Notes under the pieces: generated by a model
Told to the model about the DNA's origin: nothing
The model's database searches: none
Seen by the model: the letters and a program-made list of their open reading frames with translations, nothing else
Part shown: positions 8,311 through 62,649 of the stretch, piece after piece
Layout of the letters: every line of letters starts with the position of its first letter
Position numbering within the stretch: the stretch's first letter is position 1
DNA from: Lobosporangium transversale
Taxonomy: Eukaryota
DNA length: 64,000 nucleotides
NCBI RefSeq assembly: GCF_002105155.1
Contig: NW_019028979.1
Span: 1,054,001-1,118,000, forward strand
Reading direction: 5' to 3'
Program-made: the position numbers and the translations under genes

Positions 8311-8887
8311 ATGGGGCCTCCTCCACGTATGCCTCGGCCATACGAGCTGGACCCGGACGTAAAGGCTACGCTTCGTGTCGAGTCATTCCAGGTAACGGAG
8401 AGTATATGAGACGATAATACTACGCTACCAGGTCGAGAAACAAAAATAGAAAGAAAAACAAAGAAGAAAAATGGCGTTCAGCTGACTCAACATATCTGCC
8501 TTCCATTCGTTTATTTTCTTCATCTTTGGAATAGGGTGTATTCAGTCCCAAGGTGTTTATTGAAAAGCTATCTAGTGGAATCATTACCACACGTATTAAA
8601 GAAAACTCGAATACATTCGACCCAAAGCCTTTTATTCGAACATTTGAAAGCTCACTCGAGGAACTGGAAAAATTAACCAGCAAGATGCAGAAACATACTA
8701 TTGAGCTGGAACGTGAAACACAGAAAGAAGAGCTGGTATTCAAAAAGCAGGTCAAAGAACTTGGACTCGGATTTGAGGTAAATGGATCAAGATTGAAAAA
8801 AAAAAAAAAAAAAAAAAAAAGTCGGTTCCGGCATTACCTCTATAACAGTTAGAAACCGATTAATATTTATGTGTCTTACTGGCTGAA

Positions 8888-54105: not shown

Positions 54106-54257
54106 TAAAAATACAATTACCTCTACAATCATCATTATTTTTGGTCAGTACCGGATAAAAGCAAAGTACAAAGTGTTCCAGCATCTCAGTGTTCTTTTTC
54201 TTATCTTTCGACCTTTTGAATTTATTATAGAGCTGGAACTAGATCTGTGACTCTGCA

Positions 54258-57200
54258 ATGATAGGATCAACACTTCTCAACGAACGAAGCCGTCAACTGC
54301 AACAGGCACAGGCACAGACACAGCGTCAAAACCAGACATCAATTCCTATTCATTTTTCACCTTTGGCCCAAACCGCTCCTCGGTCACTCTCGCCGGAAGA
54401 ACAGCTGGCGCGGATGACTCTTTTGGACGAGCTCATGGATGACATTGGCATGGGAAAATTTCAAATGCAACTCTTGGTAATGACAATAATAAATAAAGAA
54501 CAAAAATGCCAACCGTGGCATTATCATCCCAACTGTACTTCTGGGTCTACTTTTATACCTCATTGGTTGTCATTTTTATCCTTTTATTGTCTAACATTTT
54601 AATAACTCCATGACTACACAGGTTCTCTGTGGATTGGGGTGGTTTGCTGATAATGTAAGTAGCAATGGCAAAAAATAAAGGAAAAAAAGTTGATTTAACA
54701 GTAAGAATTTCTCGTAAAACATCTATTTTGTCTTAAACTTGATTCCATTCACGTAGATGTGGCTACAGGTAAGAAATAAAAGTGATAATTTCAATGGTGA
54801 AGTGGTGAATACACGCTTGGGATTTAAACTGATCAAATAAAAAAATGCCCTCTATTCTTCATTGTTGATACTCCTTCTTTTGTCGATCGATATCGCATGG
54901 CGATTAGTGCATGGCACTGATTTTACCCCGCGTCCAAGGTGACTACAGAGAGCAAATTTAATACTTTGTTGCTAGTTAATTCATGACCAGCTGCTTGATT
55001 CTCTTTGCGAGTGGAATGCTCATATCTGAAAGGAGACTGTGCTAATGCTACCTATCTCTTGTTATCTCATTAAAATCAGCGCAATTTGAGGTCCAAGATC
55101 AATATATTGGTATTCTTTCTAGCTCCACATTCGTGGGAATGATGTTTGGAGCAATGTTCTGGGGCATGCTCTCAGATTCTCATGGACGCAAGCAGGCTTT
55201 TAATTTTACACTCATCGTCACAACCATTTTTGGAATCGCTGCCAGTTTCGCCAACAGTTACTGGTTGCTATGTCTCTTAGCCCTTTGCTTGGGTTTTGGG
55301 GTAAGGATCCTACTATTTGCTTTTTCTTAGTTACTAATTGCATCCAAAAATGTCAAAGGAGAGTGACTCTTTATTTTGTTCCTAATATCAATAATTACAA
55401 TCCAATTTCATTAATTTTTCAGGTGGGCGGGAATATGCCAGTAAGTAATCCTAAATGAAGCTGCTCGTATCAATTCTATCATTACGGAAACATTGAGAGC
55501 GAGCTTCCAAAACAACCATTGATTTAAACTGTCTCCTTTCTCCTTTTTGTTTCTGATCCATTTCTCCCTGCATTATTCATACGGATCATAAGGTGGATGG
55601 TAATAATAATGAAATTAGGAACTAGGAGGATATGATCAAGATATGGCTTACTGTTGTAATCAGTTACTGCTCTGCTAAGCCTTCCATTTTTTATTAACAG
55701 GTGCTTTGTTCCTTGAGTTTACACCAAAGAAAAGTCAGTATCTTTTGACCTTTCTATCAATTTTCTTTTCATTCGGTGCGGTGGCAACATCTATTCTCGG
55801 ATATATTTTACTACCACCATTCAGCTGCGAACTGCCTGTGCCAGGCGGCTGCCAAGAGAAAGGATGGCGATACATGTTTCTTGCATTAGGTGGTGTGGTA
55901 AGTGAATCTCTTACTGGAAGTACTTTTATTTTTATTTTATTTTATTTTATTTTTTTTTTTGGCAATAAATGATGAATAGGGTATATTGGAATGAAGAATT
56001 AATTATATTTTTAAAAAAGACGCTGTCGATGGTTGTTGGACGCGTCTTACTGTTCAGATTAGAAGAATCACCCAAATTTCTATTGAATCATAACCGCCAT
56101 GAGGAAGCAGCGATGGTTCTCCGTCGAATCTATAAAATCAACCACCATAGGAACCAGCATCGTAACTCAGAAGTTTTTGAAGAGAACATTGAGACCCTCA
56201 CTTCTCGATTCAACTGCTCTCACGTTGCGGATGAACTTTCCTCACCACGGTCCTCAGAGGAGGAGCTATATTCTGACTCTGAATCTGTACAAGAGACAGA
56301 GCCATCAGATAATCGTAATAACGCCGCAGTAGGGCCTGCTAGAAGGTCACAAGATGATATTCATCAACGTCCAGGACCAATACTACGAAGTAAATACGGG
56401 ATGATGTTTTATAGAAAACGTCGCCAATGGCAGCAAAAGATTGATGTCGCTATCTCAAGAGTGAAGCCATTATTATCACCCAGGTTTCGACTTAGTACGA
56501 TCTTGATCTGGATCATCTGGGCCTTGGTGGCATTTGCCTACACAGCATTTAACGTATTTTACCCAAAGTTTTTACAGGAACATGGTGCAGTAGGCAACCA
56601 ATCCTTACGACAGGTCTACCTGGATATCCTTATTTACTCTGCTGCTGGTGTGCCTGGCTCGTTTGTATGTGATAAAAATAGCCCTAGCTGTTAAATGATG
56701 GTCTCTTTCAACTTATAATTTTTAACATTTCGCCGTCTGCTAATCTTTGTTTTCTTCTTTTTTAAAACTATACAATTCACTAGCTCGCCACAATCATGGT
56801 TGAAGGACGGCTTGGTCGTCGCTACACAATGGCCGTTGCAACACTTGGAACTGCTCTGGCCGCTGCCCTTTTCGCAGCCTTAAGCAGCCATGCAGCCATG
56901 ACCACATTCTCGGCTATTCTTAGTTTATTGGCCACCTTGAACTATGCTGTCTTATACTCGTACACACCTGAAGTATTTCCTTCTGAGATCCGTGGTACAG
57001 CTTGCGGTGTAGCTGCAGCCATGTCACGATTGTAAACTAAGCATGAAATAAGCAAACTAGAAACGACTCAATGTCGTCCCAGTACAATATAATTCTACTA
57101 ACTCACACTTATGTTATTGTTTCTTACTGTTTAATCGTAGGGCGGGTATTTTATCACCTCTGATTGTTGGAGCCATGCTTACTGTCAGTACTTATTTCCC

Positions 57201-57288
57201 GCTTTATGCGTCCTGTGTGACTTTCCTCATTTCCGGTATTTGTATGTGCTTTCTCCCTATCGAGACCAAAGGGCGAGCTGCAGAATAG
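54258..57288 (+). CDS. Major facilitator superfamily transporter (SV2/SVOP-like sugar-transporter group), 11 exons
   Basis: Exons 54258-54476, 54622-54654, 54757-54768, 54908-54938, 55080-55300, 55423-55440, 55593-55599, 55701-55897, 56020-56664, 56784-57031, 57141-57288. IGMGKFQ..LCGLGWFADNMWLQ, motif A WGMLSDSHGRK, GGNMPVDGALFLEFTP, ESPKFL, YTPEVFPSEIRGT and LPIETKGR. Confidence 0.93.
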
Positions 57289-57541
57289 AAGGAAATCAAC
57301 GAGTGTAAAAATGATTACCTATAATGTACTTATTAGATACTAGAATCCACGAGGCCTCCGCTCTAAGTTAAACTTTTCATTTCTAAAGACTATTTTCAAA
57401 AGTTATCCCAGGATATCTGTGTGAAGTTTCTATTTTATTATTTTTGGCAAAGACCCACGAGATTATATAGGGTTTATAAAATAGCTGTGGGAGGTTTTTA
57501 TAATGTCTTTCTAATTGTACAACGCTATAGAATTGAAGAGA

Positions 57542-58190
57542 TTTTTTTTTTTTTTTTTTTTTTTTGATAACAAGGACCCACGAGGTCATGTAGGATTTAT
57601 TTAGATGTTAACTCTATAAATGGGTACATCCTGTTCATAAACCACGTCAGCATTGAGTAGACTTCCTTGGTCCCAGAGGACCTGTGGCACGGCTCTACTC
57701 CCTACTTGACCTGTTGTGCGCGAAGGTCATCCTTTAGCCGCTGTCCTCAATCATCAAAAATTTACAGCTTTCCAGGCGCTCCATAATCGCCAATTCCACC
57801 TGCTGCCGGTAGCTTGCCGCCACTCGCCGGTCTGCCTCAGTCCTGATCGCCTTCACATCTGCTGTTCGTCGTTGTCCCTGGTGAGAGCCAAAGAATTCAC
57901 CTCTGCTACGTCTGTGCCTCCCAACACAGTTGCGTCCCCTGGCGCGTTTGCTCACAAAGGTGATACCATTGTCTCTTTCCCAGTTGACGGTGACTTTGCA
58001 GCATCTGTTCCAGATTTCAGTCCTGCCGAGTTCCTCGATTGACTTGACAAAGCGGCAAACAATGTACCTTGAGATCGATGCTGTGGTTCTGAAGATCGTC
58101 TTCCATTTTTGTATCAGTCCCTTCGGCACCAAACCGTGTTACAAGTCTTGGACAGTCCAGTGGGCATCCTCACCCTCGTTCCTCCGTCCC
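57542..58190 (-). mobile_element. Non-LTR retrotransposon, short 5'-truncated copy (family B): ORF2 C-terminus, 3' UTR and poly(A) tail
   Basis: T24 at 57542-57565 is the poly(A) tail, with a 3' end shared with the neighbouring copy. Minus-strand frame HWTVQDL*HGLVPKG...RTEIWNRCCKVTVNWE...KFLMIEDSG* (stop 57734) carries one in-frame TAA. Confidence 0.88.
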
Positions 58191-58191
58191 A

Positions 58192-60379
58192 TTTTTTTTT
58201 TTTTTTTTTTTTTGATAACAAGGACCCTCAGGGTCATGGGATTTATTTTCTACACTCTATGAACAAAATGCTCCAGAAACTATAGTCAATAAACAGCTAT
58301 TACTGCACAAACGACAAGAGCCGCTGTATCCATGATTTCATAAACCCTGACCGCCGTGGTTGGTACTCAAAGTCCACCTTTCCGACGTGGCCTGTTGCGC
58401 AACGCGACAAATTATCCGCTATCCATAGTCATCAAAAACTTCATTCCACCTAGCCGCTCCATCACGTCCAGTTTGGTTTTCCCAAGGTAACTGTCCCGGA
58501 CTCGGCCATCCGCGATCTTGTAGATCTCTTTTACATTCAGCTTCTGTCTTTGTCTGAGGGAAGGGACAAGGAAATCATTGCTACTACGTCTGTGCTCCCC
58601 AACACAGTTGCGTCCTCTAGCGCGTTTGCTCATAGCAGTGATTCCACGAGCCTTTTCCCATTCAACGGTGACTTTACACCGTTTGTTCCAGATTTCTGTA
58701 CGACCGAATTCCTCTATGGCCTTGACGAAGCGCCCTGCCATATATGTAGCTATCATTGTTGTTGTCTTGAAGCCAACTTTCCAACTCTGAGCAATGGACT
58801 TGGGCGTAAGTCCATGGTAAATGTCCTGCACAGACCAATCTGGTGTGTGCTCTCTCTCTTCCTCATCATCGCCGTTCCTATCACCATGGCGTCGTACTTC
58901 TCGCACACCATCGATATGCATCTCCAGAGTTTCCCAAATGTAGTCCTCCTCTGCCGCAGTAAAAGTTGGCTCTTTTGTCCTTGGTGGGTCTACACCTCTC
59001 TCTCTGGCCCTTTGTGCTTGCTCCTGCACTGCTTTCAACTCTTTCCTCCATGTCCCCTCCCCTATCACATTCACATTTTGGATTATCTCCTTCCACTTCT
59101 CGGCCTGAGTCTCCATCGTCCTTGGACATCTCCAGATGTGCGATGTGTCTTCATCCTCTGTCCCACACACTCTGCAGTTGCCGTCTTCATAAAGGTCTGG
59201 CCTCCAGTGTCTCATATATGACTGTATAGGCAACATTCCATGGAGTTGCTTGATCCTGTGCGCTCGCTTTTGGCAGTCCGCTGGGCTGGTGAAGAGTCCT
59301 TTCGGTAGGTTGCTATCATGAACAATGTTCATAGTAGCTCGCCAATCAATTTTTGTCCAATCCTTAACATGCTCCTGCGTCCTGTTCTGAGCGATCCACG
59401 TGTGATGTGTACGAGTTGTTGACTGTAACTTAAGGATCTGCCTTAAGTCATCTTCCGCTGGTACACCGTTGAACTTTGCATGGCAGTACATGTCATTATG
59501 CTCCGTTATGTTGATATCCCATAGCTCGCCATAATGTCCATGTTTTGCTGCTTCGTCCGCTTCTTCGTTCCCTCTGTTGCCGGCATGTCCTTTGACCCAC
59601 TCGACCGTGACTTCCGATCCTTGTTGAATAAATGCGTTGTGTATAGCTGCCCACCATACTGCATACGGTGATCTAATACGTTGTCGCAACGTGCTATCCA
59701 CTCTGCCTCGGACCAATGCTCGGAATTGAGTCACAACTGCGCTGTTATCAAGTCGGATTGTCATAGGTCTGTTTCGTGGGCTGATAAGTATTCCTGCCAA
59801 CAAACCAGCTAGCTCTGCCTTTGTCGAGGATGCGTTGCCTGCTACTCTACCAGATAGCGCAGTGTAAAACTCACCCTCTTGTGTCTGGACTACCACACCA
59901 AATGCCATACTTACTCTTTCAGTGCCAATATCTTTGAGAGATCCATCCGTATAAATGACATTACCCGGCTGGGTATTGTACCGTTCCCTTTGGCGTTGGA
60001 TTTTCTCCTCGGTATTGGCACTAATGATAACTCCATTTGTGTCCCTGGCTAGGCCTCTGTTGACTTCAGGGATCACTTTTAGGCACGGTGTCTCGTTGGA
60101 ATCCAGGTCGACTTTTGCTCTCCTTAGCAGAGCTTGCTCGCTCAGACCCTCATATCTCCTTGTGTTCTGGGTCCGGCGTCTCCTCGCTTCTTCGCGGGCT
60201 CGTATGCGTTCACCATGCCTTCGCTCTCGGTCCTGGTGGCGTTCTGCTCTTCTGACTATGGCATCTAACTTTGCTCTTTGTCGCCTAAGATTATGTTCTC
60301 TGGTTGCTCTGCGCGCCTCTTTCATAACAGCTTCTCGTCTCTTTTTCCGCTCCTTCTGTTGATCTGGCACTTTGTCCAT
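58192..60379 (-). mobile_element. Non-LTR retrotransposon (L1-like), 5'-truncated copy (family A): RNase H, CCHC finger, 3' UTR and poly(A) tail; no RT or endonuclease retained
   Basis: T22 at 58192-58213. Uninterrupted ORF 58412-60379 with RNase H catalytic motifs IYTDGS, STKAELAG, IRLDNSAV and WVKGHAGNRGNEEADEAAK, then HGMLP and CRVCGTEDEDTSHIWRC (CX2CX8HX3C). AATAAA about 28 nt before the tail. Confidence 0.92.
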
Positions 60380-60491
60380 TTATGAATTTATCTTTTGGCA
60401 CTTCGTCCAACTTTTTATTATCATTTTGTTCATTTTCTGTCAATCTTTGGGATCATTAATAAATCTTTCCACGTCAATTTCCACAGAACTG

Positions 60492-60565
60492 GCTCTTGTG
60501 GCGCAATTGGTTAGCGCGTCTGACTGTTAATCAGGAGGTTGGTGGTTCAAGCCCACCCAGGAGCG
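60492..60565 (+). tRNA. tRNA-Asn (GTT), intronless
   Basis: Acceptor stem GCTCTTG/CAGGAGC, A box TGGCGCAATTGG (60499-60510), anticodon arm TCTGA-CTGTTAA-TCAGG (GTT at 60526-60528), B box GGTTCAAGCCC (60544-60554), discriminator G. TTTT at 60571-60574 and a longer T run near 60596. Confidence 0.96.
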
Positions 60566-60612: not shown

Positions 60613-60659
60613 TATTTGAACTGCCCGTACACACCTTATTTACACGGGTCTTTATTTCA
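60613..60659 (-). repeat. Inverted, internally deleted fragment of the left end of the MITE-like element at 62256
   Basis: 60613-60645 matches the reverse complement of 62307-62339 at 31/33 (23 contiguous identities). 60646-60659 is the exact reverse complement of 62261-62274. Confidence 0.8.
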
Positions 60660-62255
60660 TCTACAAACAGCAACATGTATCCTACAGATTACATGATTCT
60701 AGCTTTTTATTTCGAAGGAGATAAGCGAAGGTGAGTCTAGAGTAGAGGGGAGTCTGGGATTATTACTGTTGGAACTTGCAGCGCCGTGAGAGCTGCGATA
60801 CTCATCGCGCTCTGTCGCAATATTATGATAGGTAAAAAACACTAATGCGCTAAAAAGATTAGCAGTAGAAATTAGTGGCAATAACGCGCCACACAAAGAC
60901 GCGATAAATCTTTGATATGAAGTTTTTAGAACGAACCTTTATCATCTTATAGATAGATACGTAGTTACCTGGTACAAGTCCCTCTACCAGAAAATGAATA
61001 AATGCCCCATGGGTGTGGTATATGGATCCATATCTTATTCTCACTTACTTTTCTACTGCTTATTATCTATCTACAAAATACTTTTCACGCTCTATTTCGC
61101 TCTACAGTCACCCGAAAGAAAGTCTGGTCAAAGTGGGTTATTTTTATTTTTTTATTATTATTTTTTATTTTGAATCTCTAACAAACAGCTCATTTGTGAC
61201 ATATAAAAATACTTCACCAACCAAGATGGAAATTTACACTTTTGTTAATGAGGCCAATGTGGATAATCACTGAGGTCTTTGGGCAGCACATGCTGAGGGA
61301 AAACGGGAAGAAATAGGATTGAAGACAGCACTTCTCTTCATAACCATTTCAGAATTTTATTTTTTCAACCAAACTTTCTTTCAGGTGATTGTACAATATG
61401 AAGCTAGTCCCTAGCTGTAGAGCATCTACATGTGCTGCTGAGTATGCAGTACTGCGTGCTAAAGACGACCCAAGGCAAGTTCTGGCTATTTTATTGGTGA
61501 AAAATCAACCCTGATTGAGTATGATAATAAACTTGGAATGTAATGAGACAAAAATAAGGAACAGAAAAGAGTAATTATGTCTCTTTTCTATCACTATTAG
61601 TTACGGCTATGCTATTAAAGTATTTTAGCTATTTAGATATAGGGATATAGGCTTTGAGTGCGAACTGTCACCAACTATCAAAAGATAAGTAATCTCTCGG
61701 GTTACAAACGAGTGAGAGGATAGACATTCCACAAAATAAACTGAGGTCTACCCATTGTATTTTCGTGAATTTGATAAATAATATTTAGTGCCGAGGGCGC
61801 TTGAGCTCTTAATAAAGAAGGACAGATATAAGGACATATAAGAAAGAGAAAAGAAAGAGAGTAGTAACACGGCACGCTATGCATCGTAGCAGTGAATATG
61901 ATTGTTTGTATATCTACCGAAATAAACTACACGTTAATTACTGAACTCATCGTTGTGTGCTTAATAGTGACGGAAATACTAGAGATGTATGCACGCGCTA
62001 AATGAAAGAAAGCATCGGGGAATCTATAACAACACGGCCAACAAAAGTGCAAAGTAGAGCGGCATAGTATATTTCAATTATAGATAAATCATTTGTAATT
62101 CTGTATTTAGTCCCAGAGTCGCATAAAGAATATCAACATCTACTCGGAGCTACGTACGACCTTGATAGGATAAATATTCTGGTCAGTATTTGATGCTTGG
62201 GTATCGGCTCTGGATCTAAGCTCGTATCGTGGAAGGCTTCCCGGTAGTGGTATTT

Positions 62256-62649
62256 AAGACTGAAATAAAGACCCCGTACAAATAAAAAAAAAAGACCTGG
62301 GGAGCAGTGTAAATAAGGTGTGTACGGGCCGTGCAAATAGATTTTTTAAGTATTTGTACGGCCCCCATGTAAATATCTTTTTCCTTTTTTTTTTTTTTTT
62401 TTTGGGTCACAGTATTCATATACAATACGACGCACCAAACAGGAAGATCCTATATCGACAGATGCCATCTGAAACTTTGAGATGGTTTAATGATCTCAAG
62501 GAATGGATTAATCTAATTGGGGCCCCATATTAAATACACCATTATTTGACAGCCTATTTTTTGGGCAGCCACTTAACTTCACACGCTTGGGTAGCAGCTG
62601 GGTTGTCAGATAATGAGGTTATTTGCACGGGGGTTATTATTTCAGTCTT
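62256..62649. mobile_element. MITE-like non-autonomous DNA transposon (about 394 bp) with imperfect ~30-bp terminal inverted repeats
   Basis: Left end aagactgaaataaagaccccgtacaaataa (62256-62285) versus right end ttatttgcacgggggttattatttcagtctt (62619-62649); the outer 13 bp are perfectly inverted. Four copies of CCGT(A/G)CAAATA, two per orientation. No clear TSD. Confidence 0.65.

What the first reader, a model, noticed from the sequence alone, without database searches (positions are those of the whole stretch)
57541..60565. Candidate tRNA-gene-targeted non-LTR retrotransposon: two diverged families stacked at one site upstream of tRNA-Asn
Seen in sequence: two poly(A)-tailed, 5'-truncated LINE copies lie head-to-tail with only one base (A58191) between them, both on the minus strand with 5' ends facing the tRNA. 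The proximal copy ends about 110-115 bp upstream of the tRNA. Their shared ORF2 C-termini are only about 57% identical by my ungapped hand alignment (80/141 aa) and their 3' UTRs differ, so this is not a local duplication. All three junctions read ATTT on the plus strand (57541, 58191, 60378), compatible with repeated insertion at the same nucleotide with a short TSD merged into the tail. The copy with a nonsense codon is the distal one, as expected if a new insertion at a fixed distance pushes the older one away. Established: Dictyostelium TRE5 non-LTR elements insert orientation-specifically upstream of tRNA genes with 5' ends facing the gene, and yeast Ty1/Ty3 (LTR elements) target Pol III genes. 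Inference: a lineage of RNase H-containing LINEs tethered to Pol III machinery in an early-diverging fungus; I know of no description of this.
Basis: partly seen in the sequence, partly recalled or inferred. Interest (0 to 1): 0.88.

Follow-up and report, generated by a model that had tools for sequence, protein, structure and literature searches.

The report
LINE stack docked at fungal tRNA
Three LINE-type jumping-gene copies sit head-to-tail in front of a tRNA gene in a fungal genome, and a four-base repeat at their joints suggests they likely landed again and again at one spot 12-15 bases before the gene, a habit I found described for such elements only in social amoebae, though one locus cannot prove it.

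Summary
Two young LINE copies (86/151 aa identical, two sister families) lie head-to-tail facing tRNA-Asn, and a third, decayed 100-nt copy lies beyond them. Full-length relatives are ORF1 + endonuclease-RT-RNase H elements; the nearest named ones come from Mortierellaceae. LINE homology ends at 60365, not 60378. The next 111 nt (R) are a second multicopy repeat that stops 15 nt before the tRNA and is followed by ATTT, the letters also found at both poly(A) joints. The best reading is repeated insertion at one site, -15 to -12 from the tRNA, with a 4-bp duplication; the newest unit is R plus the LINE 3' part, likely an internally deleted copy. Targeting itself is untested. No genome or empty allele was available, and none of three related contigs held a tRNA gene. 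Rivals are a chance landing followed by self-stacking or template jumping, and R as a separate Ty3-like LTR. RNase H-bearing tRNA-targeted LINEs are already described in dictyostelids (NLTR-A/B); I found no fungal case in print.

The parts
57441..57540 (-). Decayed third LINE 3' end (about 100 nt), most like the distal family; its tail is a decayed A/T-rich tract near 57428-57446
   Evidence: Local score 41 vs 0 of 2000 shuffles (1 of 4 queries); best non-LINE tile 31 of 1966; 59 identical columns of 109; lies in a single-copy contig up to 57532; missed by nhmmer
57541..57544 (+). ATTT, candidate target-site duplication, left copy (only the A is separable from the tail)
   Evidence: Sequence
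57542..57565 (-). Poly(A) tail of the distal copy (24 nt)
57566..58190 (-). Distal LINE copy, 5'-truncated: last ~150 codons of ORF2 with a nonsense codon at 58139-58141, plus 3' UTR; closest to P0065 (95/145 aa)
58191..58194 (+). ATTT, candidate duplication, middle copy
   Evidence: Sequence
58192..58213 (-). Poly(A) tail of the proximal copy (22 nt)
58214..60365 (-). Proximal LINE 3' part: open ORF2 remnant (650 codons, stop at 58412) plus 3' UTR; closest to P0001 (405/641 aa)
   Evidence: junction at 60365 from contigs of 4 of 4 runs
59537..59959 (-). RNase HI-type domain; the D-E-D-H-D active-site pattern is read by eye (pattern recalled)
   Evidence: Pfam PF00075 E 4.2e-12; predicted fold matches E. 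coli RNase HI, TM 0.70 by target
59126..59176 (-). C-x2-C-x8-H-x3-C zinc-finger-like motif
   Evidence: Sequence; near-invariant in alignment A4; zf-RVT only E 0.21
60365..60476 (-). Repeat R: 5'-terminal 111-112 nt of a multicopy sequence at least 209 nt long; shares one base (60365) with the LINE part; likely the LINE's own 5' end or the end of a separate element
   Evidence: Contig depth about 12-14 times single-copy in X1, X3, X4; continues at least 97 nt leftwards in other copies; pieces and loose ends stop at 60476-60477
60477..60480 (+). ATTT, candidate duplication, tRNA-side copy, positions -15 to -12
   Evidence: ATTT occurs at 0.7-1.6% of positions
60492..60565 (+). Intact tRNA-Asn(GTT) gene, roughly 6 identical copies in the genome; its junction to R is single-copy

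Best explanation
Three LINE copies lie head-to-tail with their 5' ends facing tRNA-Asn and ATTT stands at all three joints, likely because one site 12-15 bp upstream of the tRNA was re-used for insertion, probably by tethering to the Pol III initiation complex. Shown: the stack, the two sister families, the APE-RT-RNase H architecture of relatives, the end of LINE homology at 60365, the multicopy repeat R ending at -16, and ATTT at 57541, 58191 and 60477. Inferred: the endonuclease nicks the + strand after ATTT, the T-ended strand primes reverse transcription on the poly(A) tail, and a second nick 4 bp away leaves an ATTT duplication. An old copy went in first, and the two young copies then landed on its tRNA side. 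The tRNA-proximal unit is R plus the 3' 2.17 kb, likely an internally deleted transcript or a template switch with 1-nt microhomology. Untested: that TFIIIB/Pol III is the tether (by analogy to TRE5-A ORF1 binding TFIIIB and Ty3 inserting at the start site), and that other copies sit at other tRNA genes.
For: (1) R's end was fixed by contigs alone (60476-60477) and is followed at once by ATTT, the letters at both tail joints. ATTT occurs at 0.7-1.6% of positions, so roughly 2-5% by chance with a base or two of slack (hand estimate). (2) Age gradient: the copy farthest from the tRNA is decayed and single-copy, while both inner copies belong to young multicopy families. So at least one insertion hit the 5' edge of an older copy, which landing in tails does not predict. 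(3) The two young copies belong to different families (P0001-like, P0065-like), so this is not a local duplication. (4) -16 lies inside known tRNA-targeting windows: Ty3 1-4 bp upstream of a start site about 10 bp upstream, DGLT-A 13-33 bp, NLTR-A 2-6 bp (PMC5911963 passages). (5) R's depth is 1.2-1.3 times that of the longer LINE copies in 3 of 3 unconverted runs (ratios by hand), as expected if R is the element's 5' end; internally deleted derivatives are known (TRE5-A.2, PMC3159450 passages). (6) Chance proximity is low: about 0.3-0.6% for any of 50-100 copies, assuming 200 tRNA genes in about 36 Mb (hand estimate, tRNA count assumed).
Against: One locus only; no genome and no empty allele in 4 runs. 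0 of 3 related contigs carry a tRNA gene. L001 is also a head-to-tail stack yet shows no tRNA gene in the ~650 nt upstream of its outermost LINE-like fragment, so stacking happens in this lineage without a visible tRNA. R shows no similarity to L001-L003, whose 5' UTRs are C-rich and resemble each other by eye. R starts with TG like an LTR. The only listed flank beyond R in other copies (2 contigs in X4, blended consensus, median 142 loose letters) is not recognisably a tRNA start. Only the A of ATTT is informative at the two tail joints. The inner joints are not bridged by listed contigs. The remnant was missed by nhmmer. Contig depth is not a true copy number. A scan over many windows weakens the chance estimate.
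Confidence: 0.5

Rival explanations
1. No tRNA targeting. One insertion fell near the tRNA by chance in a transposon-tolerant intergenic gap, and the stack grew through this lineage's general habit of forming head-to-tail arrays: insertion at T-rich primers or in earlier tails (as Zorro3 does), or template jumping from one RNA to the next in a single event.
For: L001 is a similar stack (an upstream LINE-like 3' end with its A tract, a full copy, then 71 nt identical to an internal part of the same element) with no tRNA gene. The distal copy is flanked by A tracts on both sides, like Zorro3 (PMC3956500 passages). A 1.7-kb multicopy inverted-repeat element sits 47 bp behind the tRNA, so the gap collects elements.
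Against: Tail insertion cannot place young copies at the 5' edge of the old remnant. 21 other A or T runs of 18 nt or more in the window carry no such LINE end (runs counted by hand; nhmmer), so plain tracts are abundant and three hits on one spot are unlikely. It leaves the -16 distance and the ATTT at 60477 to chance.
Confidence: 0.27
2. R is the end of a separate tRNA-targeted element (a Ty3/gypsy-like LTR) inserted at -16 with an ATTT duplication. The proximal LINE then primed on the left ATTT and deleted the rest of R. The tRNA-guided element would be R, with the LINEs as co-users or followers.
For: R begins TG on the minus strand, has a sharp end shared by several copies and different flanks, and -16 is the Ty3/DGLT-A position. 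It does not resemble the 5' UTRs of L001-L003. Target deletions accompany truncated TRE5-A insertions.
Against: It needs an extra deletion. Unless that deletion also removed unique flank, a LINE 5' end still stood at -16 before R came. R's depth tracks that of the longer LINE copies. No LTR partner, primer-binding site or gag-pol was seen in the window.
Confidence: 0.18
3. The inner joints are assembly errors that fuse separate repeat copies.
For: No listed contig bridges 58191 or 60365.
Against: The R-tRNA junction is a single-copy, difference-free 89-nt contig in 3 of 3 unconverted runs, and the left unique contig runs unchanged to 57532, where the tool cuts at the T run. The 60365 joint has only 1 nt of overlap, too little for an overlap mis-join (inference). 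These contigs also lack the window's private letters, so rare paths are dropped.
Confidence: 0.05

Closest known systems
Dp_NLTR-A (Dictyostelium purpureum) and Pp_NLTR-B (Polysphondylium pallidum); PMC5006619 passages and supplement legends, PMC5911963 passages
   Same: Non-LTR elements with APE, RT and an RNase H domain behind the RT, found just upstream of tRNA genes (2-6 bp, 16 copies; 39-64 bp, 3 copies).
   Different: Amoebozoan hosts; here a fungal, Mortierellaceae-like host and an inferred end at -16. Here a CCHC-like motif follows the RNase H. Kinship was not testable (their alignments are figures). Targeting is shown for them over several copies and only inferred here.
TRE5-A / TRE5-A.2 of Dictyostelium discoideum; PMC5911963 and PMC3159450 passages
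   Same: L1-type, poly(A) tail, opposite orientation with the 5' end facing the tRNA, several elements at one tRNA gene, and an internally deleted derivative that keeps both ends.
   Different: TRE5 lands 40-54 bp upstream and has no RNase H. Its ORF1-TFIIIB interaction and B-box dependence are shown; neither was tested here.
Ty3 (S. cerevisiae), Tj1 (S. japonicus), DGLT-A (D. discoideum); PMC5911963 passages
   Same: Insertion at or just upstream of the Pol III start site, the position at which R ends.
   Different: LTR elements that use integrase; the window's coding elements are poly(A)-tailed LINEs. R itself could be such an LTR.
Zorro3 of Candida albicans; PMC3956500 passages
   Same: Fungal L1-type LINE with zinc-knuckle ORF1 whose copies are flanked by poly(A) on both sides, as the distal copy and the L001 copy are.
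   Different: Zorro3 targets poly(A), has no duplication, and no RNase H is listed for it. Here the tRNA-proximal unit is not preceded by poly(A) and the oldest copy is farthest from the tRNA.
Grem-LINE1 of Mucor; bioRxiv 10.1101/706580 passages
   Same: LINE1-clade element of an early-diverging fungus, with zinc-finger ORF1, APE-RT ORF2 and clustered copies.
   Different: Pericentromeric and gene-free, and 'RNase H' and 'tRNA' do not occur in the text. This stack lies about 150 bp from an MFS transporter gene and has RNase H.

Membership tests
APE-type non-LTR retrotransposon (LINE) | ORF2 with APE endonuclease and RT | tested here: met
   Met in full-length relatives P0001, P0065, P0002; the window copies are truncated downstream of the RT
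APE-type non-LTR retrotransposon (LINE) | ORF1 RNA-binding protein (RRM, CCHC knuckle) | tested here: met
   L001-L003 ORF1: RRM_1 above cut-off in 2 of 3, zf-CCHC above cut-off in 1 of 3; Atlas hits under 0.9, leads only; not present in the window
APE-type non-LTR retrotransposon (LINE) | 3' poly(A) tail, 5' truncation, no LTRs | tested here: met
APE-type non-LTR retrotransposon (LINE) | Target-site duplication | tested here: inconclusive
   4-bp ATTT candidate at 57541, 58191, 60477; no empty allele
L1 clade | RT groups with L1 in a tree with reference clades | not testable with these tools
   No reference RTs could be loaded. Best PDB match is human L1 ORF2p, E 2e-19, against R2, E 1e-14; the tree of 32 fetched RTs has no outgroup clades
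TRE5/NLTR-type tRNA-targeted non-LTR elements | Head-to-head orientation, 5' end facing the tRNA gene | tested here: met
   At this one locus, 3 of 3 copies
TRE5/NLTR-type tRNA-targeted non-LTR elements | Narrow distance window over many tRNA genes | tested here: inconclusive
   No genome; 0 of 3 related contigs hold a tRNA gene, but L003 and perhaps L002 end inside or at the element
TRE5/NLTR-type tRNA-targeted non-LTR elements | Dependence on B box/TFIIIC and ORF1-TFIIIB contact | not testable with these tools
   Needs experiments; no host TFIIIB sequence was at hand
NLTR-A/NLTR-B | RNase H domain behind the RT | tested here: met
NLTR-A/NLTR-B | Common descent by RT/RNH phylogeny | not testable with these tools
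   Sequences not available as text; no dictyostelid name among the 31 RT hits (that search is word-limited and many rows are unnamed)
Zorro3-type poly(A)-targeting LINE | Copies flanked by poly(A) on both sides without duplication | tested here: inconclusive
   True of the distal copy (apart from one base) and of L001; not true of the proximal unit
Grem-LINE1 | Confined to gene-free pericentromeric regions; APE-RT-zfRVT without RNase H | tested here: not met
   MFS gene ends about 57290; RNase H present; paper passages
Ty3/gypsy LTR (for repeat R) | TG...CA termini, 4-5 bp duplication on both sides, internal gag-pol | tested here: inconclusive
   Only one terminus is in the window (TG start, ATTT flank); the other end could not be read

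The most novel reading that the evidence does not exclude
Mortierellaceae fungi carry a lineage of RNase H-bearing LINEs, with at least two co-active families, that insert at the Pol III start site 12-15 bp upstream of tRNA genes with 4-bp duplications: the Ty3 position reached by a non-LTR element, in a kingdom where tRNA-targeted LINEs are undescribed.
Probability: 0.45. Interest if true: 0.78.

Novelty: new variant of a known kind. Interest (0 to 1): 0.56.

Why it matters
If true, tRNA-gene targeting by non-LTR elements is not a dictyostelid peculiarity but also occurs in early-diverging fungi, and at a distance (-16) between NLTR-A and TRE5 that coincides with the Ty3 site. That would allow a direct test of whether LINEs and LTR elements converge on the same TFIIIB or Pol III surface, and whether the RNase H-bearing amoebal and fungal elements are kin. 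The families look young, and relatives are intact, so a working site-specific LINE in a culturable fungus may exist. If false, it is an ordinary pile of LINE fragments beside a tRNA gene.

Tried and rejected
Genome-wide distance test: no genome is held, and the loci's records are not held as genomes. The prokaryote and viral scans gave only ordinary RNase H genes (17 and 16 loci; dropped) or nothing. Empty allele: no joint across the stack in 4 runs. X1, X3 and X4 match the window's unique flank without differences, so they are probably the same strain and not independent. X7 shows strand-wise C>T or G>A conversion like a bisulfite library, so its depths were left out of the ratios. A fourth remnant at 57330-57355 was rejected: 336-1805 of 2000 shuffles reach its scores. 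Splicing as the cause of the R-LINE joint was rejected by eye (no GT donor after R in the loose end). Relaxed ARAGORN calls in L001-L003 were treated as noise (53 calls in the window at the same setting). Two nhmmer profiles of the 3' UTR did not find the third remnant. The 13-nt tag scan (3 of 4 matches at the locus, chance mean 0.45) used a pattern drawn from these copies and is not independent. A whole-length background test of the remnant was planned but not run. Earlier-scan look-ups by place and by sequence found nothing. Structure prediction added only the RNase HI fold. Literature: searches (listings) showed no fungal tRNA-targeted LINE; subscription journals and Repbase are not covered.
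Full report
1. Observation. The window holds two poly(A)-tailed elements on the minus strand, with tails at 57542-57565 and 58192-58213, one base between the copies, and the same 3' tag. tRNA-Asn(GTT) at 60492-60565 is the only tRNA in the 64 kb. The shared C-termini are 86/151 aa identical. The proximal copy is nearest to P0001 (405/641 aa) and the distal copy to P0065 (95/145) and P0004 (93/146); P0001 and P0065 are sisters in an RT tree of 32 rows (99/95). The copies are therefore two families, not a duplication. The distal nonsense codon is private to this copy.

2. What the elements are. Full-length relatives have an ORF2 of 1887-2031 aa with APE, RT and RNase H, preceded by an ORF1 of 582-615 aa with RRM and CCHC motifs. 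Named relatives are from Benniella, Mortierella, Podila, Haplosporangium, Gamsiella and Entomortierella, with a distant group in Geosiphon, so the host is likely a Mortierellaceae fungus (inference). A profile search found 159 representatives at E 1e-30 or better. The RNase H folds like E. coli RNase HI. The best solved match to the RT region is human L1 ORF2p, but the clade could not be fixed without reference sequences.

3. Correction of the 5' end. Contigs laid on the locus show the longer family members leaving the window at 60365 in 4 of 4 runs. From 60365 to 60476 lies another sequence, R. In X3, X4 and X1 its depth is about 12, 14 and 14 times that of unique flank, against about 9, 12 and 11 for the LINE upstream part and about 6 for tRNA-Asn (ratios by hand, and the tool warns that depth is not copy number). 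Other copies of R continue at least 97 nt to the left, and pieces and loose ends stop at 60476-60477. The R-tRNA junction is a single-copy 89-nt contig in those three runs.

4. One site, used repeatedly. Directly after R stands ATTT (60477-60480, -15 to -12), the letters also at 57541 and 58191. R plus the proximal LINE is thus bounded by ATTT on both sides, and so is the distal copy. The match at 60477 has a chance of roughly 2-5% (frequency, slack by hand); at the two tail joints only the A is informative. Beyond the distal tail, 57441-57540 aligns end to end with the distal 3' end (59 identical columns of 109; score 41, 0 of 2000 shuffles, for 1 of 4 queries; nhmmer missed it). It sits in a single-copy contig and has a decayed tail, so it is old. 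The oldest copy is therefore farthest from the tRNA, and at least one later insertion hit its 5' edge. The order of the two young copies cannot be read, since either ATTT copy could have been re-used; private differences in the 40 of 288 rows shown (3 distal, 6 proximal) do not separate them.

5. Mechanism (inferred). Target-primed reverse transcription would start from a + strand nick after ATTT, with a second nick 4 bp away. The newest unit would be an internally deleted or template-switched product with 1-nt microhomology, comparable to TRE5-A.2 (PMC3159450 passages). The site would be picked by the Pol III initiation complex, since -16 matches Ty3 and DGLT-A and TRE5-A ORF1 binds TFIIIB (PMC5911963 passages). 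I give this 0.5.

6. Results against. No genome was held and no empty allele was seen. Only 3 related contigs were recovered and none has a tRNA gene. L001 is itself a stack: a LINE-like 3' end with an A tract, a 19-nt inverted copy of the element's own 3' UTR, the full element, a tail, then 71 nt identical to an internal position (the last may be an assembly overlap). Upstream of it are only degenerate tRNA-like sequences. Stacking is thus a habit of the lineage and may not need a tRNA gene. L003 starts inside its 5' UTR and L002 shows 125 nt upstream of a motif shared with L001 (by eye), so both say little. R does not match L001-L003 and starts with TG, so it may be a separate LTR-like element. 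The one listed flank of other R copies is not a clear tRNA start. The inner joints are unbridged in the contigs.

7. Comparison. The closest known elements are NLTR-A and NLTR-B, non-LTR elements with RNase H found 2-6 and 39-64 bp upstream of tRNA genes in dictyostelids (PMC5006619 passages; supplement legends only). RNase H plus tRNA targeting is therefore not new as a combination. TRE5 shares orientation, Zorro3 shares the poly(A)-flanked look (PMC3956500 passages), and Grem-LINE1 is pericentromeric with no RNase H mentioned (bioRxiv 10.1101/706580 passages; supplements closed). The review's table lists non-LTR tRNA-targeters only from dictyostelids, and eight searches (listings) showed no fungal case. 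Earlier notes of this scan describe similar geometry in other fungal genomes; they are unchecked leads, none matched this family by sequence, and I did not count them as support.

8. Verdict. A real stack of three LINE copies that likely re-used one four-base site at the tRNA start region. tRNA-directed targeting is plausible and sharply testable but rests on one locus. New variant of a known kind; interest 0.56; most novel reading 0.45 likely, worth 0.78 if true.

Noticed in passing
window 60613-62339: A 1.7-kb multicopy element with 38-nt terminal inverted repeats (89%) that begin and end in TA, 47 bp behind the tRNA. It has inner inverted arms (61103-61128 / 61368-61393), a further similar end near 62620-62649 and no long ORF; probably nested non-autonomous DNA transposons.
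   Followed up: partly
L001 1-240: Two inverted, degenerate tRNA-like sequences, one with a perfect B box at 77-87, not called by ARAGORN or Rfam; possibly tRNA-derived SINE heads. A LINE-like 3' end at about 655-900 could be the tail of such a SINE.
   Followed up: partly
L001 912-930 and 1-15: The full-length LINE begins with a 19-nt exact inverted copy of its own 3' UTR (8686-8704), and the contig's first 15 nt are by eye an inverted copy of 786-800; this may be twin-priming-like second-strand priming near the RNA 3' end.
   Followed up: no
window 60366-60476: R contains an imperfect internal repeat of about 30 nt period (seen by eye) and supplies an AT-rich stretch at about -35 to -26 from the tRNA, where TBP would bind.
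   Followed up: no
window 54243-57290: Intron-containing MFS transporter gene on the + strand ends about 150 bp from the old remnant.
   Followed up: partly
window, whole: 23 A or T runs of 18 nt or more in 64 kb (counted by hand); only the two at the locus carry the LINE 3' end.
   Followed up: partly
P0001-P0003, P0065, region before RNase H: ORF2 has a long, highly charged predicted helix between RT and RNase H that varies in length between families. Both the window's proximal break and the L001 downstream fragment start in it.
   Followed up: no
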